DNA of 64,000 nucleotides from Naegleria gruberi (Eukaryota): assembly GCA_000004985.1 (NCBI GenBank), contig GG738897.1; one strand, written 5' to 3'. The position numbers and the translations under genes are program-made. How positions within the stretch are numbered: the first letter of the stretch is position 1; each line of letters opens with the position of its first letter. Positions 1 through 57,564 of the stretch are shown here, piece after piece. The notes under the pieces are model-generated. The model ran no database searches, was not told where the DNA came from, and saw nothing but the letters and a program-made list of their open reading frames with translations.

Positions 1-74
1 ATAACGTGATTGAATTATTCAGATTAAAATTATATTTCGAAACGTGATTAAAATTTTCAATTATAAAAAATTGT

Positions 75-1304
75 ATGGAAAGTGTTTCTTCAATAATTTC
101 ACATATATTTTGCTGTTCAAGAATGAAAAACAGATTCAAATCCTTTGAAGTGACAACAAACAACAATGGTACCCTTCCAAAGAACAAGACAAAACCTGTT
201 AGGAACAATGCATATGAATCACCACACTACACAACAGTGCAATCAAAGCCAGTACCAATTATTTCAACATCTAACTATGGGGATAATAACATAGATCATG
301 ATTACTATCCTTATAATCAATACAAAGAGAATAGAGATCAATCCATCGTAACGCCTAATCTGGTGGAAGAAATGGTTGAGAAAACAGTCAAATCACTCAT
401 GAGAGAGATGATGTTAATTTTAAGTGATCAATCAGATAATATCAAGATAATGAATCAACATGCAGAGCACCATAAGCAGAGAATTGAAAAATTGGAGGAT
501 CAACAAGTAATATTGGAAATGTTGAGTCAAGATAAGCTTCACTTGTCTAATCTTATTGCTGGTACATCAAAGGACATATTAGAAAAAATAATTGAAATTA
601 AAAAAGATCAATCTGAGGAAGTAAGAAAGTTGCAACACTCAAATGAAACTGAAACAAAAGCGTTAGATACCAAACTTGACAAGATGCAAAAGTCATTGGA
701 TGATGTTGTTGATGAAGTTAGGAAATTGGATGAAAAGATGAATAATCTCCACGTGCTTTACAGTGAATTGAAATTCAAAGGAAATCCATCCAAACCCTCA
801 ATGCTTTCTACTTTTTTAGGGAGGGGAAAAGAGCCAGTTCAAAAAGAAACCAAGTTGGTAGCTTCTCAACCTTTCTACTCTACTGTTTCATTCTCTGTAT
901 TCCCAAATTCTGGTTATGAAAAAGCAACTGATCAATTAATCAATTTGATAGGTGAACAATGTAATTCTAACCAGACCTATATCAATTTTAAAACCAAGAC
1001 CAAAATTGAAGAGTATGAGAATGGTGAAAAGGTTCTCTTCATTAGATATTGTGGAAGTACCAGATTTGAAAGTCCAGACGCAAGTGCCCTCTTGGAAAAG
1101 GGATGTAAAATTGTTTTCATCTTGTTGACTTATGGAGATAAGACCATTGATATCAAATTACCATCACAATTCCAAAGTTGTGCATTTATGCAAATTCAAA
1201 TCAATGGAATGTATTATCACAACACTCAAGATTTGGTTGGAATGCATGATCAAAAGCAATGCAAATTATTCCAATTAATTACTAGCCAATTTACAGAGCA
1301 ATAA
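75..1304 (+). CDS. hypothetical coiled-coil protein (409 aa), single exon
   Basis: Continuous ORF starting at a true ATG (attgtATGgaaagt). The central region is rich in E/K/L/Q heptad-like sequence, then a ~150 aa C-terminal globular region. No recognisable catalytic motif. Codon usage matches neighbouring genes. Confidence 0.5.
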   Translation: MESVSSIISHIFCCSRMKNRFKSFEVTTNNNGTLPKNKTKPVRNNAYESPHYTTVQSKPVPIISTSNYGDNNIDHDYYPYNQYKENRDQSIVTPNLVEEMVEKTVKSLMREMMLILSDQSDNIKIMNQHAEHHKQRIEKLEDQQVILEMLSQDKLHLSNLIAGTSKDILEKIIEIKKDQSEEVRKLQHSNETETKALDTKLDKMQKSLDDVVDEVRKLDEKMNNLHVLYSELKFKGNPSKPSMLSTFLGRGKEPVQKETKLVASQPFYSTVSFSVFPNSGYEKATDQLINLIGEQCNSNQTYINFKTKTKIEEYENGEKVLFIRYCGSTRFESPDASALLEKGCKIVFILLTYGDKTIDIKLPSQFQSCAFMQIQINGMYYHNTQDLVGMHDQKQCKLFQLITSQFTEQ

Positions 1305-1540: not shown

Positions 1541-2852
1541 TCATTTCACGAATTCGTGTCGAATATTGTAACCAGAAACCTCTTTCATAAATTCATCCAA
1601 AGAGAATAATCCTGCGCAAGGAATGGCTCCTTTTTGTTCAACATATCCCCTTGCAAGTTTTTTAGCAATGCATATGGACGGAATGGCTGGTATCATTGGC
1701 CCATCTCCTCCTTTTGCAATTAAATTCCAAGTAATAGTCTTTTCTTTACCATTCTTGTCCAATCCATTGATTATCATTTGCATACCACCTCTATCAGATC
1801 CAAAATTATAGAACCACCCACTCATGGTCTTGAATAATGGAGAGTAAACGGACCAATCTTTTACAATCCCAGCTTGTGCAAGATATGACATTCCCACAAC
1901 AGAAAATTGGAACATGTTCAACTCTACACCAGCTCTAAACTCCAAGTTTTTGAGAGTAGGATAAATCTTTGGAAAAATCTCAACCTCAGGAGTTTCACAA
2001 AAAGCAACATATCTAGTTCCTATTCCATCTGGAAATTGTGCCCTTTTCACTCCTTGCCATCCAATGACATTTTCCAATTTACCATTCAAGAACATTGGTA
2101 TTGGCTTTCCACAATAACTCAATATGGATCTCATTGTTGATTCTCCAATATGAGCTCTATTACCAGGAGAAAGACAACTATCAATGCTTGTAATTTCTGA
2201 AAGATCATGTTTTAACACCTCGTTTAAAACAGCAGAGGACAATCCAGGAACAGTACTGGCTATTTAATGATAAGAGAAGACAAATTATCAATAACACAAA
2301 CTTACCTCCACAAACAGCAAGCACATCATTCTTCACTGCCTTGTCGTGTAACTTGTCAGAAAAGTTTGCAACAAACTCTCTAGAATCCGATAAATCTATA
2401 TAATTAATTCCTCTATCAATACATTGCTCTGCCACATGAAAATTCTGTCCTTGAAATGGTCCACAAGTATGAATGACCAGGTTAGGCTTTGTTTGTTGTA
2501 GACAATCCTTCAAACTTCTCTCATCATTCACATCAACCAGAGAGGTTTGTACTCTAAAAGATGACGATGATGAAGTATTCTGTATTAATTCATCTCGAAA
2601 TTGATTGGCACTTGCTAAATTCCTTCCAGCAATAACAATTTCCTGTGGAGTATTAACATCATTGTCTTTGAATAATTGGGAGGTAATTCTCTTGCCGAAT
2701 GAGCCATAGCCTCCGAGCACAAGCACTCTGAAGGAGGCTTTTTGATGATGGAGAGAAAAGGATTTTGATAAAGTACTCTTTCTAATTAATAATGTACGGG
2801 TGGTGGCTTTGAACATTTTTTTGATTATGAAGATAGATGGAAAGGAGGACAT
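1541..2852 (-). CDS. saccharopine dehydrogenase-like NAD(P)-binding oxidoreductase (~421 aa), 2 exons: 2306..2852 and 1541..2259, intron 2260..2305
   Basis: N-terminal Rossmann motif VLVLGGYGSFGKRI, then HTCGPF, and a C-terminal Sacchrp_dh-like region. The two track ORFs (2205..2852, 1541..2242) join through a 46-nt intron gtaagtttgtg...aaatag in phase 1. The spliced junction reads ...LAVCGG|ASTVPGLSSAVLNE in frame. Confidence 0.8.
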
Positions 2853-3000: not shown

Positions 3001-4188
3001 ATGAATGAAAAATACAAACTCTACTGCGAAGGTACTCGTAATGGAGCCAATTTACAAGAGGCCTTCACCTCGCAACGATTTCCCTCCGTTGCATTGCGAA
3101 AGAATTCCTTTTTTTCTCAGGCTTTGGATGATGATCAGATCGGAGATGATGAATTATTACCTCTTTCTATGGTTTGTTCGGGTGGTGAATCAAAATCCTA
3201 TTCATTGTACTTTTTTGAAGGAAGTGAATCGAGGTGGTTTTTCAAGGAAAAGAAATATGTTTTTGAAGTATTGTTCAATCAGATGAGACCGAGAGCAGAA
3301 TCTCATTGGTCACGATTGATGAATAGAGTAGTCTTGCTGCATGATAATGGACCATTGTTTGAAATGATGGATGGAAGATTATTTCTGTTCGATATCCATA
3401 CTGGATTGTTGTCTTGTTTCTTTATTGAGAGATCGTCACAAATTAGAGTGATTGGAAGTGGACTAATGTCGAATATAATAATGGTTCAAACCACTGAGGG
3501 GAAAATTATTAAGAAACATTTTAATAGAGAGCCTAAAGAAGTTGTAATTGATGATCCATCACCAGTTAAGCTATTTTCATGTTTTTGCAGAGATTTGCAA
3601 ATTATTGTTTTGGAGAATAACAAATTCTACATTATTAAGGATGGTTCCTCAAAGGAATCCCATTATGGATTTGCATCTTATGGATTTGACGTTCCTGTTG
3701 AGGTTGCTACTCCACTCTTTAACAGTGGAATCAAAAAGGTTTCATCAGGTTATAGACATTGTGTAGTTCTATTGGAAAACGGACAGGTGTTTACGAGAGG
3801 ATTCAACTATCACAATCAATGTGCAAATGGAGATGATACAGATATAGAAGGTACCTTTTGGGAAGTCAAAGTAACAGGAGTTCTTGATATTGAATGTGGA
3901 AGTATTTGTACTGCTCTCAGAACAAAAACTCATTTTATATTTTACGGATCTTTAATATATGGGTTCGATAAGGCAGGATATTATCATAAGGTTGAATATG
4001 AGGATCAACAATTTTCACTTGGTCCTTGGCATGCCTTAATATTTAGAAACAAGTTCATCAAACACGTTGGAAAGAGTGAGATTTACTATATCAACAATCT
4101 CAGATCAATTTCACTAGTGAATGCTTCTCCATTTTCTGATGCTTTATTTTCATTCAAGGACCATTTTGCTGCATCTCAAAGTGATTAA
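3001..4188 (+). CDS. hypothetical protein with possible RCC1-like repeats (~395 aa)
   Basis: ORF 2971..4188 in the track starts on TTG; the first ATG is at 3001 (MNEKYKLYCEG...). The segment GYRHCVVLLENGQVFTRGFNYHNQCANGD resembles an RCC1 blade (G..H...L..G.V...G.N..GQ.G). Otherwise no clear motifs. Confidence 0.45.
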   Translation: MNEKYKLYCEGTRNGANLQEAFTSQRFPSVALRKNSFFSQALDDDQIGDDELLPLSMVCSGGESKSYSLYFFEGSESRWFFKEKKYVFEVLFNQMRPRAESHWSRLMNRVVLLHDNGPLFEMMDGRLFLFDIHTGLLSCFFIERSSQIRVIGSGLMSNIIMVQTTEGKIIKKHFNREPKEVVIDDPSPVKLFSCFCRDLQIIVLENNKFYIIKDGSSKESHYGFASYGFDVPVEVATPLFNSGIKKVSSGYRHCVVLLENGQVFTRGFNYHNQCANGDDTDIEGTFWEVKVTGVLDIECGSICTALRTKTHFIFYGSLIYGFDKAGYYHKVEYEDQQFSLGPWHALIFRNKFIKHVGKSEIYYINNLRSISLVNASPFSDALFSFKDHFAASQSD

Positions 4189-4691: not shown

Positions 4692-6119
4692 ATGAAAGCA
4701 AATGTCGGTTCTTCATCATTATTATTGCTGTTCATATTAGTACTTGGACTTTCGGATAACTATTTCTATTCGAAACAAATAGTACATGCTGCGGAGACTT
4801 TAACCGTCTCTGTTGAAACTCTCTCCATTTCAGAATATTTTAAGCTTGGATTCCAAAATCTTGATTATAATCCCAATACTAATGTAAATACTTTCTCCCA
4901 AAATGCCTATACGAAATATCATATAGTTCACATCCAATCTCATCAGATAGCTGCTGTTCCATTCACCACTCTGAATACTACTGGAGTACTTGCTGAGGAC
5001 GAAACTTTATTGAATGAGCTCTCACAAATATACGAAACTAAAGTACTCAGTAATTTCATCAAGAAAAACACTCTATTACAAGAAGTAGCTTCACTTTCGT
5101 CCGACGAAGAATTGGATTACATGTATGCATGTTGTTCAGATGATGATTTAGTAATGATGACTGCTTGGAATGAATCCAATTTTTTACTAGACGAAACTGC
5201 AAGACGAAAGAGGAGAATTGATTCAAAACTTGCCTCAACTGTTTCCATTTCTACCAATCAAAAGAAATCAGTTTCTTTCTATTCAAAACTCGAGGATGAA
5301 CATTGGTTATTAGATCAGCTATGGAGTGACATTCCAATAATTGCTATCCCAATCGAATATTTAGATCATTTATTTTTGAATATTAAGAATAATATTTATA
5401 TGGGAAGTTTTAAAGAAAATGGAATTAGGAAGGAGGTGAATGATTATGAATTGGAAGATTTATTTCATTTGGTTGGAACAGAGGGAGTTTTGACAATGAC
5501 TGTTGTGAAAACTTCTCCACAAGTTTCGTCCAGTGAGGAATTGATGAATTTGTTGACTATGGAGCAGAAAGATGAAATTGTTCAAGCAATTAAGAAGAAT
5601 ATTCAGGTGGAAATCTTGGATAAGTTGCTGAGATTTGAAAAATCATGTAACGTGACAAATTCAACTGCCATTAGTCAAATGAGAGATTATCACAATGCCT
5701 TATTCAGGAAATCAATGGGATTTGGTTATTTTACAGAAGAACAAAGTCAAGCACTTTCTTATTATCTATACATGAATGCATATGTTACAAAGAATTTGGA
5801 ATTACAACAATTACCAATACTTTCCTATACGAATGATTTATTCTGGACAGCAATGCAAATTTTATATAACGAATCGACTGATTTGAGAACTGTTCTGGAA
5901 AATGAGGGATACATGAATGATGAGAATCAGACTTTTCAATCTTACATGTTAAATGCATTTTCTGGATTCAAACAGAATTTGAATCAATACATTACCTCAA
6001 ACTTTTATCAAGCTCAATGCTATAGTGGATTTAATGATTACTTGGGGATGTTTCACTATTATTCATACTCTTCCTACGAATTCTTCATGTTTAAGGATGG
6101 AATTTTATCTCTGCCTTGA
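4692..6119 (+). CDS. hypothetical secreted protein (475 aa) with N-terminal signal peptide
   Basis: ATG in A-rich context. Hydrophobic N-terminus MKANVGSSSLLLLFILVLGLS, then a non-repetitive hydrophilic body. Continuous ORF. Confidence 0.5.
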   Translation: MKANVGSSSLLLLFILVLGLSDNYFYSKQIVHAAETLTVSVETLSISEYFKLGFQNLDYNPNTNVNTFSQNAYTKYHIVHIQSHQIAAVPFTTLNTTGVLAEDETLLNELSQIYETKVLSNFIKKNTLLQEVASLSSDEELDYMYACCSDDDLVMMTAWNESNFLLDETARRKRRIDSKLASTVSISTNQKKSVSFYSKLEDEHWLLDQLWSDIPIIAIPIEYLDHLFLNIKNNIYMGSFKENGIRKEVNDYELEDLFHLVGTEGVLTMTVVKTSPQVSSSEELMNLLTMEQKDEIVQAIKKNIQVEILDKLLRFEKSCNVTNSTAISQMRDYHNALFRKSMGFGYFTEEQSQALSYYLYMNAYVTKNLELQQLPILSYTNDLFWTAMQILYNESTDLRTVLENEGYMNDENQTFQSYMLNAFSGFKQNLNQYITSNFYQAQCYSGFNDYLGMFHYYSYSSYEFFMFKDGILSLP

Positions 6120-6363
6120 GTTCCATTTCAGTTTTCTGGAAGGAAAATGATTGAAGTAAATCTCTAATCATTGGTATTGGAGCTCTGAATAACTTCAATA
6201 CTTGCATAACATTGTAAATATTGAGAATTGAGTTTGAATCAGCTCTGTTTGGTTTTCCTGTTAGCAATTTCATAAATCCACTATTTCCCTTTTGCATTTT
6301 CATATCGTAGGCAGAACCATCTCTTCATTGGCAATTGTTTTTTACATTTGTTTGGGAATTACC

Positions 6364-7593
6364 ATGATTTTAAATAGAAAGAGTAAGAATATTCCAATCA
6401 GAAGAAGATTCCTCCTTCCATTTGTTGGACCTTTCTGTCTCTTTATCATTCCAATTTACTTTTTAGAGCCGGTGTGGAATAGACAATACATTTCAGTTTT
6501 TACACAAACAGATTTGAGATTTTCAGTAACTGCCATTTATCCAAATTTATTCATTTCACTTTTCTTCTCCACTTACATTGTTACAGTGTTGAGATTCTAC
6601 CACTTGAAGAATTTGTATTGGTTTATGAATTTGGTTGCCTCCAAGAAGAAAACTATCAGTCAAAGATCATTGAAATTTCAAAGAATTCTCACTTCAAAAA
6701 TCATGGCCACAATCTTTACCATCCTTTTGACCATTTGCGTCTTTTTGATATGGCTCTCTTACTATACCACTTGGTATGATACTCCAAAAGCTTACGAAGT
6801 TTCTGCTTATAATATGCAAGTTGAATTGTTATTCCTGGTTCCGTTTGCAACACTCTGTCTCATTTCCTCAATTGTTTGCTTTATTTGCTTGGTTGTTGAT
6901 TTGATTCTCAATAGGAAAAAGCTGAAACAGAGAGGAGTATTGTACTTTTTCTTTTTTGATGATCCATTCTTTTTAAGAATTGATCTAATCATTATGATAT
7001 TGAGCTTGGTGATTTCTGCTTTGATTTTCATGTCTCTTTCTGGAACTACCAACATAGCTGGTAAGGTATTGCTCCTGGTCTTGTTCATATTGTGTTATCT
7101 CGTTGTTGGAGGAACTACCATGATTATAGAATCTATTCGATTCTTACTTAAACTCTGCAGAAGAGAACACTATCAATCTCTGGCATCAGAAGAAAATTCC
7201 ATTCAAAAACTTCTCAAAGAGACTGAATTTAGAGAAATGCTTCGAGTCTACTCTCGAAACGAACATTCCATTGAGAATCTAGCTCTCTACGAAGTATTGG
7301 AACAAATCAGAAAGAGTGGAGTTGTCACTCACAAGAATTTATTGGAAATTCATCATAATTACATTCAAATGTTTGCCCCATTTGAGATTAATTTATCATC
7401 GGATGGAAGATTTAAATTTATGGAATTGTTGGAACGTGAGGCGAATGTTCCCTACTCGGATTTGGATGAAATAATAATGAGAGAATTGTTGATTAATTTG
7501 ACAGATACCATTTCGAGATTGGAAACGACATCTGAATATGAGGATTGGTTAGAAACAAAGAAATTAAAGAAGGATATTGAATTAAATGTTTAA
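6364..7593 (+). CDS. multipass membrane protein with C-terminal RGS (regulator of G-protein signalling) domain
   Basis: Six clear hydrophobic helices after the first ATG (6364). A seventh (SLAIVFYICLGITMIL) would be included only if translation begins upstream, since the track ORF starts at a TTG at 6292. The C-terminal ~130 aa match the RGS-box pattern: SEENSIQKLLKETEFREMLRVYSRNEHSIENLALYEVLEQIRK...LLEIHHNYIQMFAPFEINLSSDGRF, compared with consensus F..FL..EFSEENL.F...V..F......IY..YI...A..EINLD. Confidence 0.6.
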   Translation: MILNRKSKNIPIRRRFLLPFVGPFCLFIIPIYFLEPVWNRQYISVFTQTDLRFSVTAIYPNLFISLFFSTYIVTVLRFYHLKNLYWFMNLVASKKKTISQRSLKFQRILTSKIMATIFTILLTICVFLIWLSYYTTWYDTPKAYEVSAYNMQVELLFLVPFATLCLISSIVCFICLVVDLILNRKKLKQRGVLYFFFFDDPFFLRIDLIIMILSLVISALIFMSLSGTTNIAGKVLLLVLFILCYLVVGGTTMIIESIRFLLKLCRREHYQSLASEENSIQKLLKETEFREMLRVYSRNEHSIENLALYEVLEQIRKSGVVTHKNLLEIHHNYIQMFAPFEINLSSDGRFKFMELLEREANVPYSDLDEIIMRELLINLTDTISRLETTSEYEDWLETKKLKKDIELNV

Positions 7594-7673: not shown

Positions 7674-8621
7674 ATGTCAAAACAGCAAACTGCTTTTTAT
7701 GAGATAATATTTTGTGATGATGTTATTGATACGATACTATCGTTCTGCAATCCTAACAAGATCATTTCGTTTGCTTTAGTTTCGAAACAATTCTTTCAAG
7801 CAATTTCACAAAAAATCAACACTGTAGAATTTATCAAACATGAAAATGCCATCCAATACTTGAAAACAACCAATTCAGTATTTATTATTACTAAACTCAA
7901 GATTAGTTTAGTTTCGGATGCAAAGAAAATGGTGAAACTTTTATTAAAAAACAAAAAGTCAAGAAATTTAACATATCTAGATTTGAGGAATAATGAATTG
8001 AAAGATTCTCAAGTCAAGGACATTGCCAATTGTTCCAATTTGACAAATTTAACACATTTAGATCTAGGATGCAATCAATTTGGACTAAATGGACTAAATG
8101 CCATTGTAAAAAGTCCTAAATTACAAAAATTAACACATTTGAGTGTTTCCAGAAATCAAATTCCTTTTGGTTTTGATTTTTCCATATTGAATCAATATTT
8201 ACCTGCATTGAAATCTTTGGATTTGAGTGCAAACAAATTTATTGAAAAAGATATCAAACCAATTTTCACAATTTCTCGATTGACAAGTTTGAATTTGAGG
8301 GAATTACCAAATGTGATATGGTTTCTCATTGATATAGTGCCACAATTCGAATCTCTAACTAGTTTAAAGCTTGGAAAGAATTCTTCTATCAATGAATTTG
8401 TTCATACAAAACTGCTATTATGGGAAAATTATCAGAGTTTGACTGAATTGGATTTGGGACACAATAATTTCACAACAGATGAAATCAAGGAAGTTATGAT
8501 GCGCTTTGTGAATTTGAGAAAATTAAATCTAATTGGAAATAGCAAGATTTCACTCCAAAATAGTTTGGAAGAATTTTTAAAACTGAACGACAAGATTGAA
8601 GCATTTTCTTACTGTTGTTAA
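7674..8621 (+). CDS. F-box-like / leucine-rich-repeat protein (315 aa)
   Basis: ATG in aaaaaaaATG context. The N-terminus FYEIIFCDDVIDTILSFCNPNKIISFALVSKQF is F-box-like. It is followed by LRRs (LTYLDLRNNELKDSQVKDIANCSNLTNLTHLDLGCNQFGLNGLNAIVKSPKLQKLTHLSVSRNQI...). Confidence 0.65.
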   Translation: MSKQQTAFYEIIFCDDVIDTILSFCNPNKIISFALVSKQFFQAISQKINTVEFIKHENAIQYLKTTNSVFIITKLKISLVSDAKKMVKLLLKNKKSRNLTYLDLRNNELKDSQVKDIANCSNLTNLTHLDLGCNQFGLNGLNAIVKSPKLQKLTHLSVSRNQIPFGFDFSILNQYLPALKSLDLSANKFIEKDIKPIFTISRLTSLNLRELPNVIWFLIDIVPQFESLTSLKLGKNSSINEFVHTKLLLWENYQSLTELDLGHNNFTTDEIKEVMMRFVNLRKLNLIGNSKISLQNSLEEFLKLNDKIEAFSYCC

Positions 8622-8705: not shown

Positions 8706-9911
8706 TTACAAAGAATCATCAATTAGATTAGGTAATTGTTTCAAAATATTTCTGGCACCATTGTCTCCAATATTGAAACGAATTTTGAGGTAAGTCAATT
8801 GGTTCATTTCAGCAATATAATTGGCTCCTTTCTTATTAATATTATTAGAATTAATATTAAGACTAGTCAACTGCTTCATTTCGCTAATGCATTTAGCTCC
8901 TTCGTCTTGAATACTGTTACAACTAATATCCAGACAAGTTAATTTTTTCATTTGACTGATAAATTTAGCTCCTTCTTTACCAATATTATTGTGTCCAATA
9001 TTAAGATTGACCAATCGATTCATTTCACTGATAAATTTTGCGCCTTTTGCACTAATACCATTATTAGCAACATTCAGATCAGTTAACAATTCAAGTCTAC
9101 TTAAATATCTTACGTCATCTCCTAATATATTATACTTGGCATTAAGATAGGTCAATTCTTTCAATTCACCCAAATATTTAGCTCCTCCATTAATATTATT
9201 GCATTCAACATCGAGGTGAGTTAATTGCTTCATTTCACTCAAATATTTCGCCCCCACTTCACCAATATAACAGTAAACCATGTCGAGAGTACGTAATTCT
9301 TTCAATTCCTTTAAAAATTTGACTCCTTCACTTCCAATATGATTACTATTAATATTAAGACAAGTCAACTGTTTCATTTTTCCAATATACTGAGCTCCTT
9401 TCTCCCCAATCATGTTGTTACTTATATTTAAATTAGTCAATTGCTTCAATTTCCTCAAATATCCAACACCTTCATCTCCAATCAAATTAATACTAATATC
9501 CAAATTAGTTAAATGTTTCAGTTGACCAATATATTTGCAATGACCATTTTCAAAAGTGTTTTCACTGACATTCAGTGTACTTATATCTTTCATTAAATTA
9601 AATAACTGGCAATCGAATGCAATTATCCTATTCCTTCTATTCACTGTCAAACTTTGAATATTTTGTAAAAATTGACCTTTTAATTTCATGTCATTTTCAC
9701 AATACAAGGAAAGTTTTAATTTTTTCGAAATGTTTGCAAATTGTGAAGAAACTAAAGTGCAAGTCGTGACAATAAATTTAAAATCATCGAGGAAGGAAAG
9801 AATTTCATAGAGCACATCATTAGAAAAGACGGAATTGGAAAGTTTCTTCCTTCTTGTATCCGAAAGTTGGACGAATCCTTCGGTTATTGCATCTAATTTT
9901 CGTTTACTCAT
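8706..9911 (-). CDS. F-box-like / RNI-type (24-residue) leucine-rich-repeat protein (401 aa)
   Basis: The start is a true ATG. N-terminal F-box-like VLYEILSFLDDFKFIVTTCTLVSSQF. About eleven tandem 24-aa repeats of the form LTxLNIxxNxIGxEGAKYIxEMKQ (ribonuclease-inhibitor-type LRR). Convergent with the 7674..8621 gene, with stops 84 nt apart. Confidence 0.7.
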   Translation of the reverse strand: MSKRKLDAITEGFVQLSDTRRKKLSNSVFSNDVLYEILSFLDDFKFIVTTCTLVSSQFANISKKLKLSLYCENDMKLKGQFLQNIQSLTVNRRNRIIAFDCQLFNLMKDISTLNVSENTFENGHCKYIGQLKHLTNLDISINLIGDEGVGYLRKLKQLTNLNISNNMIGEKGAQYIGKMKQLTCLNINSNHIGSEGVKFLKELKELRTLDMVYCYIGEVGAKYLSEMKQLTHLDVECNNINGGAKYLGELKELTYLNAKYNILGDDVRYLSRLELLTDLNVANNGISAKGAKFISEMNRLVNLNIGHNNIGKEGAKFISQMKKLTCLDISCNSIQDEGAKCISEMKQLTSLNINSNNINKKGANYIAEMNQLTYLKIRFNIGDNGARNILKQLPNLIDDSL

Positions 9912-55776: not shown

Positions 55777-57564
55777 ATGAAACAGATGAAGAGATCCATT
55801 GTACAATTAGCCAAGGCTCAAACTAAGTCTACCACTGCTGCTGCCTTCTCCAACACCTTTGTTAATCAACAACGTACCAAGAAGGTTGATGTTAAGGTCA
55901 AGAAACTTTTCATTGGTGGTGAATTTGTTGAAGGAAAGGAAGGAAAGAAATTCTCTGTATACAATCCAGCAACTGAAGAAGAAATTTGTCAAATTTCCGA
56001 AGCCACTGCTGCTGATGTTGATGATGCAGTTCGTGTTGCTAGAAATACCTTTGAAAACGTCTGGAGAAATTATGCACCATCCCAACGTGTTCGTCTCATG
56101 AATAAGTGGGCTGATTTGATTGAAAGAGATGCTGATTATATTGCTGATTTAGAATGTATTGATAATGGTAAGCCACGTGATATGGTCAGAAATGTTGACA
56201 TTTACTTGGTTCTCCAATGTATTAGATACTATGCTGGTTGGGCTGATAAGATTAACGGTAAGACCATTCCAGTTGACTCTGACTTCTTTGCCTACACTCA
56301 AAGAGAACCAGTTGGTGTTTGTGGTCAAATTGTTCCATGGAATTTCCCATTGGTTTGTTTCTTTTTAATTATTTTCTAATTATTTTAATTTTTTAATTTA
56401 ATTTTTTTTTTAAATATTTTAATATTTTAATTAAATTTATCAAGTTGATGGCTGTAAGTAGAATAGTAAAGAATTATGAAATAATTAACACAAATTCTAT
56501 AGACTTGGAAGTGGGCACCATGTTTGGCAACTGGTAACGTTTCCATTTTGAAGACTGCTGAACAAACTCCATTGTCTGCATTGTACGTTGCTAAATTGGC
56601 TCATGAAGCTGGATTCCCACCAGGAGTCATTCAAGTTTTGAGTGGTTTTGGTGAAACTGTTGGTAATGCATTGACTCATCACATGGATGTTGATAAGATT
56701 TCATTCACTGGTAGCACTGAAGTTGGTAAAAAGATTCTTGGAGCTTCTTCCAAGACTAATTTGAAGAGAGTTACTCTTGAACTCGGTGGTAAATCAGCAT
56801 TGATTGTCATGGGTGATGTTAAGGATCGTGCCACTCTTGAAAAGGCTGTCAATATTGCCAATCAAGGTACCTTCTTCAATCAAGGTCAAGTTTGTACTTG
56901 TTCATCTCGTGTCTTTGTTGCCTCCAATATTTATGAAGATTTCTTGAAGATTTCTAAGGAACTTGCTGAAAAGAGAGTTGTTGGTAACCCATTCGATTCC
57001 AAGACTGAACAAGGTGCTCAAGTCAGTGAAGAACAATTCAACAAGATTATGAGCTACATTGAATATGGTAAGAATAATACTAGACTTGTCACTGGTGGTG
57101 AACGTGCCCATGCCAAGGGTTACTTTGTTAAGCCAACTGTCTTTGCTGATGTTGAAGATACTCATAAGATTGCTCAAGAAGAAATCTTTGGACCAGTTAT
57201 GAGTGTTTTGAAGTTTGATCATGATAATGTTGAAGATGCTATCAGAAGAGCCAACAAGTCTGAATATGGTTTGGCTGCTGGTGTCATTACTCATGATCTC
57301 AACCAAGCTCACAGAGTTGTAAGTTTATTATTTTTAAATTTTTTCTAATTTTCACTAATTATCATTCATTTACAGACATCGGGTCTTAGAGCCGGAACTA
57401 TTTGGGTAAACACATGGAATGCTTTCTTCAGTAATATTGAATTCGGTGGTTACAAGATGTCTGGTCAAGGTAGAGATTTGGGTGAACATGCTTTGGATGA
57501 ATATACTGAAAATAAGTCTGTCATTACTCATATCCCAGGTTTGAAACGTCCATACAAGTTTTAA
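55777..57564 (+). CDS. aldehyde dehydrogenase (NAD+), ALDH1/2 (mitochondrial-type) family, 529 aa, 4 exons: 55777..56352, 56445..56453 (9-nt microexon), 56503..57318, 57376..57564
   Basis: N-terminal presequence-like MKQMKRSIVQLAKAQTK. Motifs KLFIGGEFVEGKEG, VGVCGQIVPWNFPL|LMA|TWKWAPCLATGNVSILKTAEQTPLSAL, FTGSTEVGKKI, ELGGKSALIV, catalytic Cys region NQGQVCTCSSRVFV, EEIFGPVMSVLKF, then ...AHRV|TSGLRAGTIWVNTW and GYKMSGQGRDLG. Intron 1 is 56353..56444 (gtttgt...tcaag), intron 2 is 56454..56502 (gtaagtag...tctatag), and intron 3 is 57319..57375 (gtaagttt...tttacag). All are in phase 0. Confidence 0.85.

What the first reader, a model, noticed from the sequence alone, without database searches (positions are those of the whole stretch)
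6292..7593. Multipass (6-7 TM) membrane protein with C-terminal RGS box
A GPCR-like helical bundle is fused directly to an RGS domain (EFREMLRVYSRNEHSIENLALYEVLEQIRK...IHHNYIQMFAPFEINLS). This is the plant AtRGS1-type architecture, a receptor-GAP that self-regulates G-alpha. Whether the protein has 7 TMs depends on the true start. The first ATG (6364) gives 6 helices. An upstream non-ATG or unannotated exon would add a seventh (SLAIVFYICLGITMIL).
Basis: partly seen in the sequence, partly recalled or inferred. Interest (0 to 1): 0.6.

Follow-up and report, generated by a model that had tools for sequence, protein, structure and literature searches.

The report
Naegleria seven-helix receptor with RGS domain
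This is the membrane and RGS part of a Naegleria gruberi "7TM-RGS" receptor, a family already known in Naegleria, but the gene also includes a large upstream extracellular domain, is wrongly modelled in the public annotation, and is interrupted by an odd 211-base insert just before the first membrane helix.

Summary
ORF 6292-7593 (+) has seven hydrophobic helices followed by a canonical RGS box. The first ATG (6364) lies inside helix 1. The window is Naegleria gruberi.

The protein belongs to a large heterolobosean 7TM-RGS family (Naegleria, Willaertia). Bosch et al. 2022 described 28 members in N. fowleri, some shown to be GAPs.

The gene is bigger than the finding. Three close relatives carry a domain homologous to the upstream ORF 4692-6119 (signal peptide plus about 450 aa), contiguous with helix 1.

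In N. gruberi the two ORFs are separated by a 211-nt interruption (6108-6318) with stops in all frames. It has a good acceptor-like 3' end but no consensus donor. I could not decide between an odd intron and a gene split or decay.

The public model (P0001) is a chimera that skips helices 1-6.

Verdict: new member of a known kind, modest interest.

The parts
4692..6119 (+). Upstream ORF (475 codons plus TGA) encoding a predicted signal peptide (residues 1 to about 21, MKANVGSSSLLLLFILVLGLS) and an ectodomain of about 450 aa. It has 6 N-glycosylation sequons and 4 Cys (ACC at 5130-5135, C319, C443).
   Evidence: It is homologous and colinear to the N-terminal regions of P0004 (E 6e-82), P0005 and P0006, which continue without a break into TM1. 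No Pfam family matches. The AF2 model is unusable (pLDDT 45).
6018..6107 (+). Conserved juxtamembrane motif C-YSGFNDYLGMFHYYSYSSYEFFMFKDGIL, the last 30 residues of the ectodomain.
   Evidence: C443, N448, Y450, H455, Y456, Y462, K468, D469 and L472 are invariant in the 8-sequence alignment A3. In every relative whose sequence continues here, TM1 follows about 2 residues later.
6108..6318 (+). Interruption of 211 nt between the two homologous ORFs. It has stops in all three frames (TGA 6117, 6148, 6152). Its 3' end is acceptor-like: a pyrimidine tract followed by TAG (6308-6310) and CAG (6312-6314). No GT lies between 6090 and 6119. It is absent from N. lovaniensis, Willaertia and the metagenome relatives.
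   Evidence: There is no Rfam match. The RNA fold pairs the two ends, z = -2.1. A 7-nt terminal inverted repeat TCTGCCT/AGGCAGA occurs together with a 6-nt direct repeat ATCTCT, joint p about 0.012. There is no copy elsewhere in the window.
6316..6372 (+). TM1 (residues 9-27, TISSLAIVFYICLGITMIL). The first ATG of the ORF (6364-6366) lies inside it.
   Evidence: It aligns to TM1 of Willaertia P0002, N. lovaniensis P0004, P0005 and P0006. AF2 helix 2-27 has block-mean pLDDT of 77, 95 and 92 for residues 1-30.
6409..7110 (+). TM2-TM7: residues 40-58, 82-100, 137-155, 188-206, 232-250 and 255-273.
6898..6984 (+). Family signature in the cytosolic loop between TM5 and TM6: DLILNRKKLKQRGVLYFFFFDDPFFLRID. 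R229 is invariant and D224/P225 are near-invariant.
   Evidence: Alignments A1 and A2. Modelled as two short helices (208-214, 216-222) within blocks of mean pLDDT 94-97.
7198..7575 (+). RGS domain (residues about 303-428). The G-alpha contact set is conserved: E328-N329 (7273-7278), N367 (7390-7392), D405-T406 (7504-7509) and R409 (7516-7518).

Best explanation
The finding is the 7TM-plus-RGS portion of a Naegleria gruberi member of the heterolobosean 7TM-RGS receptor family.

Gene layout. The ancestral, and probably the present, gene reads: signal peptide, then a Cys-containing glycosylated ectodomain of about 450 aa with unknown fold (ORF 4692-6119), then a GPCR-fold seven-helix bundle (N-out, C-in), then a cytosolic canonical RGS domain (ORF 6292-7593).

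Proposed mechanism, inferred from the family. The membrane-anchored RGS domain binds the switch regions of GTP-bound Naegleria G-alpha subunits and accelerates GTP hydrolysis. This holds G-protein signalling off. An unknown extracellular cue sensed by the ectodomain and 7TM bundle modulates that GAP activity or its access to G-alpha, as proposed for AtRGS1 and for the N. fowleri 7TM-RGS proteins.

Join between the two ORFs. In N. gruberi the two coding blocks are separated by a lineage-specific 211-nt interruption (6108-6318). I consider it most likely removed as an intron with a non-consensus 5' splice site, giving a protein of about 890 aa.

What is shown: sequence, fold, topology pattern, family membership, colinearity with uninterrupted relatives, and the error in the public model.

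What is inferred: GAP activity, ligand regulation, and above all the splicing of the interruption.
For: 1. Organism. P0001, a predicted protein of N. gruberi, matches at 99-100% identity, and all mismatches lie at model exon edges.
2. RGS domain. The single sequence is weak. The family profile hits PDB RGS17, RGS7 and RGS10 at about 1e-10. 43 of 62 relatives hit Pfam RGS. E328 (invariant) and N329 (near-invariant), N367, D405/T406 and R409 align to the E-N, N and D-S..R positions of RGS7. From established knowledge of the RGS4-Gi-alpha1 structure, these are the contact residues.
4. Topology. There are seven hydrophobic segments with K/R-rich loops 1-2, 3-4 and 5-6.
5. Family. The profile search gives 927 hits, 78 below 1e-30. 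Nearly all full-length hits carry 200-1300 aa in front of the 7TM-RGS module. Named members come from N. gruberi, N. lovaniensis and Willaertia magna.
6. One ancestral gene. Ectodomain residues 76-472 match P0004 residues 3-381, and 7TM-RGS residues 10-432 match P0004 residues 384-802. For P0005 the ranges are 32-467 and 468-896. P0004, P0005 and the more distant Willaertia P0002 are single uninterrupted ORFs, but P0002's N-terminal region is not detectably similar to the window's.
7. Selection. pN is 0.27-0.39 against pS of about 0.77 in the ectodomain, TM1, 7TM and RGS parts. All invariant juxtamembrane residues are intact in the window.
8. Acceptor-like 3' end. A pyrimidine tract with TAG/CAG ends within 2 codons of where homology to TM1 resumes.
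9. Weak donors are used in N. gruberi: GTTTGT in the ALDH gene of this window.
10. Function of the family. In N. fowleri, 28 7TM-RGS proteins are described, several with complex ectodomains, and the isolated RGS domains accelerate GTP hydrolysis on Nf G-alpha subunits (PMC9283941).
Against: No consensus donor exists. The only in-frame GT-AG combinations are 6089/6314 (GTTTAA), 6050/6314 (GTTTCA), 6025/6310 (GTGGAT) and 5948/6314 (GTTAAA). Each would delete invariant juxtamembrane residues: K468, D469 and L472 for 6089, and more for the others.

All other Naegleria introns I examined start GTAAGT or GTTTGT and are 46-100 nt long.

No transcript evidence could be obtained. N. gruberi is not indexed in the contig look-up.

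The single-sequence RGS score is below Pfam's gathering threshold.

GAP activity and ligand are untested. The ectodomain fold could not be predicted.
Confidence: 0.7

Rival explanations
1. Gene fission or recent decay. A rearrangement at the ectodomain/TM1 boundary, possibly a partial tandem duplication or a small inverted-repeat element, split the ancestral gene. ORF 4692-6119 would then end at TGA 6117 and give a secreted, untethered ectodomain. The downstream ORF would either be translated from ATG 6364 as a 409-aa six-helix (N-in, C-in) RGS protein lacking TM1, or not be expressed at all (young pseudogene).
For: Stops occur in all frames and there is no consensus donor. The 245 nt between TGA 6117 and ATG 6364 is an ordinary intergenic distance in this window. 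A six-helix product would still obey the positive-inside rule. The interruption has terminal inverted and direct repeats (p about 0.012). Its frame-2 translation weakly resembles the gene's own TM1-TM2 (p about 0.016). It is absent from all relatives.
Against: Both ORFs (475 and 433 codons) are completely intact. The frame stays open through TM1 upstream of ATG 6364, and homology resumes right after a pyrimidine-tract AG. A GPCR bundle lacking TM1 is unlikely to fold. ATG 6364 has a poor, non-A-rich context (ATTACCATGA), unlike neighbouring gene starts. No copy of the insert occurs elsewhere in the 64 kb.
Confidence: 0.27
2. The gene is a stand-alone AtRGS1-type 7TM-RGS with a short N-terminus. 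Helix 1 is supplied by a non-ATG start (for example TTG 6292) or a small unannotated 5' exon, and the upstream ORF is an unrelated gene.
For: The ORF is open from 6269 and includes TM1. AtRGS1-like proteins have short N-termini (established knowledge).
Against: The upstream ORF is homologous to the ectodomains that are fused to this same 7TM-RGS module in P0004, P0005 and P0006. The short exon ATG 6147...|GTAAAT 6156, joined to AG 6310 or 6314, is out of frame by my manual reading of the sequence. Nearly all family members have long N-terminal regions.
Confidence: 0.05
3. The public gene model (P0001, 732 aa) is correct. It is an RCC1-repeat protein spliced to part of ORF 4692-6119 and then, across a 1.4-kb intron (5646-7056), to the last helix plus the RGS domain.
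For: It is the deposited annotation.
Against: The RCC1-like ORF continues uninterrupted to its own stop at 4188. The model discards the signal peptide. It also discards six conserved helices that are under purifying selection and present in every relative. Other Naegleria introns I examined are 46-100 nt.
Confidence: 0.02

Closest known systems
Naegleria fowleri 7TM RGS proteins (Bosch, Jeck and Siderovski, J Biol Chem 2022, PMC9283941)
   Same: Same genus and same architecture: a variable and often large ectodomain, then 7TM, then a C-terminal RGS. Some relatives in my family alignment carry GPS, EGF or REJ modules, as described for Nf 7TM RGS1-4. The RGS contact residues are canonical. This is the expected mode of action.
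   Different: I did not compare directly with the 28 N. fowleri sequences. This gene's ectodomain has no Pfam-recognisable module and is shared with only a few relatives. The N. gruberi copy carries the 211-nt interruption and is mis-modelled in the database.
Arabidopsis AtRGS1 (plant 7TM-RGS receptor-GAP)
   Same: Seven helices followed by a cytosolic RGS box, with N-out and C-in topology. The proposed role is as a membrane GAP for G-alpha, which in plants is self-activating.
   Different: AtRGS1 has only a short extracellular N-terminus, whereas this protein has a signal peptide and an ectodomain of about 450 aa. No sequence relationship of the 7TM parts was shown or tested. The family signature FFDDPFxxRxD in the TM5-6 loop defines the heterolobosean family found here.
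Class C and adhesion GPCRs, and the GPR158-RGS7 complex
Euglenid nonconventional introns (Milanowski et al. 2014, PMC3935182)
   Same: This comparison concerns the interruption only. Shared features are a lineage-specific position, non-GT/AG borders if conserved residues are kept, complementary sequences near the two ends, and direct repeats at the junctions.
   Different: Removal from RNA is not shown. I read no CA/TG motif at +4,+5 and -7,-6 for the borders I considered. The 6-nt repeat period (212 nt) is out of frame. Such introns have not been reported outside euglenids in the papers I searched. The statistical support for the repeats is weak.

Membership tests
RGS domain (Pfam PF00615) | Sequence matches the RGS profile above the curated threshold | tested here: inconclusive
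   The single sequence scores 22.0 bits, E 2.2e-4, against a gathering cutoff of 23.9. The family profile A2 hits PDB RGS domains at 1e-10 over the full domain. 43 of 62 relatives hit PF00615 at E <= 1e-3, best 2e-11.
RGS domain (Pfam PF00615) | The all-helical RGS fold | tested here: met
RGS domain (Pfam PF00615) | G-alpha switch-contact residues (RGS4 E87/N88, N128, D163/S164/R167) | tested here: met
   E328-N329, N367, D405-T406 and R409 align to the E-N, AINLDS and DSYPR positions of RGS7. They are invariant or near-invariant in the family. The equivalence to RGS4 numbering comes from established knowledge.
RGS domain (Pfam PF00615) | GAP activity on a G-alpha subunit | not testable with these tools
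   It has been shown only for N. fowleri family members (PMC9283941).
7TM-RGS receptor-GAP architecture (AtRGS1 type; Naegleria 7TM RGS) | Seven transmembrane helices with a GPCR-like fold N-terminal to the RGS domain | tested here: met
7TM-RGS receptor-GAP architecture (AtRGS1 type; Naegleria 7TM RGS) | TM1 is part of the expressed protein (start codon or exon upstream of it) | tested here: inconclusive
   No ATG lies upstream of TM1 in the ORF. The homologous upstream exon exists, but it is separated by 211 nt without a consensus donor. No transcript data were available.
7TM-RGS receptor-GAP architecture (AtRGS1 type; Naegleria 7TM RGS) | N-out, C-in topology placing the RGS in the cytosol | tested here: met
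   The positive-inside pattern gives 6, 9 and 6 K/R in loops 1-2, 3-4 and 5-6, against 2, 1 and 0 in the others. The upstream ORF has a signal peptide, N-glycosylation sequons and conserved Cys. This is prediction only.
7TM-RGS receptor-GAP architecture (AtRGS1 type; Naegleria 7TM RGS) | Homology of the 7TM part to AtRGS1 | not tested
   The AlphaFold-database library was unavailable and no AtRGS1 sequence was at hand. No Pfam 7tm family matched.
Heterolobosean 7TM-RGS family (this work; equals the Naegleria 7TM RGS of Bosch et al.) | Full-length similarity over 7TM plus RGS, including the LRxYYLRNLY and FFDDPFxxRxD motifs | tested here: met
   Similarity is 55% to N. lovaniensis P0004 (E 4e-146) and 27-47% to many others. 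Both motifs are present, as LRFYHLKNLY and FFFFDDPFFLRID. I did not compare directly with the published N. fowleri accessions.
Euglenid-type nonconventional intron (for 6108-6318) | Removed from mRNA despite non-GT/AG borders | not testable with these tools
   No RNA data were available.
Euglenid-type nonconventional intron (for 6108-6318) | Stable pairing that brings the intron ends together, with the conserved CA/TG at +4,+5 and -7,-6 | tested here: inconclusive
   The minimum-energy fold pairs the ends, but with z of only -2.1. The 7-nt inverted repeat has p about 0.05 alone. I read no CA/TG motif for the candidate borders (from; criterion).

The most novel reading that the evidence does not exclude
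The 211-nt interruption (6108-6318) is a young, N. gruberi-specific intron that lacks a usable GT donor yet is precisely removed. It would be either a euglenid-like nonconventional intron, with ends brought together by pairing, or an intron born from a partial tandem duplication or small inverted-repeat insertion at the ectodomain/TM1 boundary. That would be the first such case in Heterolobosea, the sister lineage of Euglenozoa.
Probability: 0.07. Interest if true: 0.7.

Novelty: new member of a known kind. Interest (0 to 1): 0.3.

Why it matters
7TM-RGS receptor-GAPs are the proposed upstream regulators of self-activating G-alpha proteins in plants and many protists. In Naegleria they form a large, diversified family and have been suggested as drug targets in the pathogen N. 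fowleri.

This locus adds one member with an ectodomain that no database family recognises. It also shows that the public N. gruberi model is a three-gene chimera that hides the whole 7TM bundle, which matters for any census of Naegleria receptors.

The interrupted junction is a small, cheap test case. A single RT-PCR would show whether Naegleria splices a non-consensus intron, or whether a receptor gene has just been split.

Tried and rejected
1. Canonical intron search. I enumerated all in-frame GT-AG pairs joining the two ORFs. Only four weak donors emerged, and each deletes invariant residues. By manual reading, GC-AG, U12-like and short-first-exon (ATG 6147 plus GTAAAT 6156) solutions are out of frame or lack the motifs.

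2. Tandem duplication at the DNA level. A local alignment of 6096-6315 against 6311-6560 scores no better than shuffles (24 against a mean of 26). A protein-level resemblance of frame 2 to TM1-TM2 is only p about 0.016. The ISALSSI remnant is not significant in an unbiased test.

3. Mobile element. No second copy occurs in the window or in the fetched loci. No clean target-site duplication fits the 7-nt inverted repeat, and excision of one repeat period (212 nt) is out of frame.

4. Structured RNA in the insert. No Rfam family matches.

5. Transcript or strain evidence. Exact-protein look-ups for P0001, the upstream ORF and the paralogue P0046 found nothing. Two metagenome scans found no relatives.

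6. Ectodomain fold. The AF2 model with 8 sequences gave pLDDT 45, so I ran no fold search. There is no Pfam hit and no similarity to the Willaertia ectodomain.

7. AFDB fold search, which could have compared with AtRGS1. The library was unavailable.

8. Other family members in the 64-kb window. None were found.

Full report
**What is at the coordinates.** The window is AT-rich (about 33% GC) and comes from Naegleria gruberi. A deposited N. gruberi predicted protein (P0001) matches three stretches of the window at 99-100% identity, and every mismatch lies at a model exon edge. ORF 6292-7593 (+) is open for 433 codons from a TTG. Its first ATG is at 6364. A hydropathy scan gives seven hydrophobic segments, at residues 9-27, 40-58, 82-100, 137-155, 188-206, 232-250 and 255-273. 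Lys/Arg are concentrated in loops 1-2 (6), 3-4 (9) and 5-6 (6), against 2, 1 and 0 in the alternate loops. This is the pattern of an N-out, C-in seven-helix protein with a cytosolic tail.

**RGS box.**
- Alone, the sequence matches Pfam RGS at E 2.2e-4 and 22.0 bits, just under the 23.9-bit gathering cutoff. It matches solved RGS17 and RGS7 domains at E about 4e-4 to 2e-3.
- A profile search of 1.8 billion representative proteins found 927 relatives, 78 of them below 1e-30.
- In a 62-member alignment (A2), 43 members hit Pfam RGS, the best at 2e-11.
- The A2 profile hits RGS17, RGS7, RGS10 and others in the PDB at about 1e-10 over the whole domain.
- E328 and N329 (invariant, near-invariant), N367 (invariant), D405/T406 (near-invariant) and R409 (invariant) align with the E-N, AINLDS and DSYPR positions of RGS7. 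From established knowledge of the RGS4-Gi-alpha1 complex, these are the switch-contact residues, including the catalytically important Asn.

**The gene is larger than the finding.**
- Almost every full-length relative has 200-1300 residues in front of the 7TM-RGS module.
- Three close relatives carry N-terminal regions homologous to the window ORF immediately upstream, 4692-6119 (+). These are N. lovaniensis C9374_009004 (P0004, 55% identical over 7TM-RGS), a metagenome protein (P0005) and an N. lovaniensis paralogue (P0006).
- That ORF starts with a signal-peptide-like MKANVGSSSLLLLFILVLGLS. It has 6 N-glycosylation sequons and 4 Cys, of which the ACC pair and C443 align with conserved Cys in A3.
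- The match is exactly colinear. Ectodomain residues 76-472 align to P0004 residues 3-381 (E 6e-82), and 7TM-RGS residues 10-432 align to P0004 residues 384-802 (E 4e-146). For P0005 the ranges are 32-467 and 468-896.
- P0004, P0005 and the Willaertia homologue P0002 are single uninterrupted ORFs.
- A juxtamembrane motif (CYSSYNxYLGxFHY..Y...KDxxL) is invariant in eight sequences, is intact in the window, and in every relative whose sequence continues here is followed two residues later by TM1.
- All parts show long-term purifying selection against N. lovaniensis, with pN 0.27-0.39 and pS about 0.77, which is saturated.
- The ectodomain has no Pfam match. It has no detectable similarity to the Willaertia ectodomain. 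It could not be modelled, with pLDDT 45.

**The interrupted junction.** In N. gruberi the ectodomain ORF ends KDGIL-SLP-TGA (stop at 6117), and homology resumes at T9/I10 (6316/6319). The 211 nt between 6108 and 6318 have stops in all three frames (6117, 6148, 6152) and are absent from the relatives.
- The 3' end looks like a splice acceptor. It reads ctatttcccttttgcattttcatatcgTAGgcAG, ending within two codons of the resumed homology.
- There is no GT between 6090 and 6119.
- The only in-frame GT-AG pairs are 6089/6314 (226 nt, GTTTAA), 6050/6314, 6025/6310 and 5948/6314. All have weak donors, and all delete invariant residues.
- For comparison, Naegleria introns I could verify begin GTAAGT: the minus-strand gene at 2305-2260, the second ALDH intron, and the N. 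lovaniensis P0006 intron. One begins GTTTGT, the first ALDH intron. All are 46-100 nt long.
- The insert has no Rfam match and no second copy in the window.
- Its RNA fold pairs the two ends only modestly better than shuffles, with z = -2.1.
- It has a 7-nt terminal inverted repeat (TCTGCCT/AGGCAGA) and a flanking 6-nt direct repeat (ATCTCT), with joint background frequency of about 1.2%.
- Its frame-2 translation weakly resembles the gene's own TM1-TM2, p about 0.016. There is no DNA-level duplication signal.
- I could obtain no transcript or other-strain evidence.

My ranking is as follows:
- An intron with a non-consensus donor, giving a receptor of about 890 aa, is most likely. The reasons are that both long ORFs are intact, the acceptor sits exactly at the homology boundary, and the frame is open through TM1.
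- A recent fission or decay, giving a secreted ectodomain plus a 409-aa six-helix RGS protein from ATG 6364 or nothing, is a serious rival at about 0.27.
- A truly non-canonical, euglenid-like intron is an exciting but improbable reading, at about 0.07 (criteria from PMC3935182).

**The public annotation is wrong.** P0001 (732 aa) joins 3001-3858, 4827-5645 and 7057-7590.
- The first piece belongs to an RCC1-like ORF that runs on to its own stop at 4188.
- The model drops the signal peptide.
- It treats 5646-7056 as an intron, which removes helices 1-6.

**How it most likely works.**
- Shown here: a GPCR-fold bundle with the RGS on the K/R-rich side, and a canonical G-alpha-binding surface.
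- Known from the family: N. fowleri encodes 28 7TM-RGS proteins, several with complex ectodomains. Their isolated RGS domains bind AlF4-activated Nf G-alpha subunits and accelerate GTP hydrolysis in a canonical, switch-I-dependent manner. Some of those G-alpha subunits are self-activating (PMC9283941).
- Known more broadly: 7TM-RGS architectures are widespread in bikonts and some opisthokonts (PMC3971589).
- Inferred: this protein is a receptor-GAP that keeps Naegleria G-alpha in the GDP state until an unknown extracellular cue, sensed by the novel ectodomain, alters GAP activity or localisation, as proposed for AtRGS1.

**Novelty and verdict.** The architecture and even the genus-level family are already published, so this is a new and mis-annotated member of a known kind. 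The points beyond the literature I read are three:
- the unrecognised ectodomain subfamily;
- the correction of the chimeric model;
- the unexplained 211-nt interruption.

Interest is about 0.3.

Noticed in passing
window 3001-4188 (+): This is a complete RCC1-repeat-like ORF of about 395 aa from ATG 3001. In the public N. gruberi model P0001 it is truncated at 3858 and fused to the neighbouring receptor gene. It looks like an independent single-exon gene.
   Followed up: partly
window 6091-6303 (-): A 70-codon ATG-initiated ORF on the opposite strand fills the 211-nt interruption almost exactly. It is probably chance, but I did not test it by homology search.
   Followed up: no
window 7674-8621 (+) and 8706-9911 (-): Two convergent genes encode leucine-rich-repeat proteins. 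For the first, Pfam gives an F-box (E 3.6e-4) and several LRR families. The second was not scanned but shows obvious LRR repeats in its translation. They start only 81 nt downstream of the RGS gene's stop.
   Followed up: partly
window 56353-56502 (+): An aldehyde-dehydrogenase-like gene appears to contain a 9-nt micro-exon (TTGATGGCT, coding LMA, at 56445-56453). The upstream intron has a GTTTGT donor (GT at 56353) and the downstream intron is GTAAGT...TATAG, ending at 56502. This was inferred from the conserved ALDH motif NFPL-LMx-xWK.
   Followed up: partly
window 2260-2305 (-): A clean 46-nt GTAAGT...AAATAG intron joins ORFs 2205-2852 and 1544-2263 on the minus strand. I used it as a reference N. 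gruberi intron.
   Followed up: partly
L004 139-2574 (-) and L003 8161-8421 (-): Next to the metagenome homologue P0005 lies an 811-aa gene with a CHASE sensor domain and a faint RGS hit. Next to the N. lovaniensis orthologue lies a gene with a NIT sensor domain. Heteroloboseans may fuse several kinds of extracellular sensor domains to RGS modules.
   Followed up: no
window 6898-6984 (+); alignment A2: The most conserved sequence of the whole family is not in the RGS box. It is in the cytosolic TM5-TM6 loop (FFDDPFxxRxD, with R229 invariant). That is the position where GPCRs usually contact G proteins, and its role is unknown.
   Followed up: no
L002 about 1-290 (+): In the metagenome contig carrying P0003, TM1 and an upstream Cys-rich segment (CHNCQNEYC) are encoded in a different frame from the rest of the gene. 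This could be a frameshift or a very short intron between TM1 and TM2 in that organism, or an assembly error.
   Followed up: no
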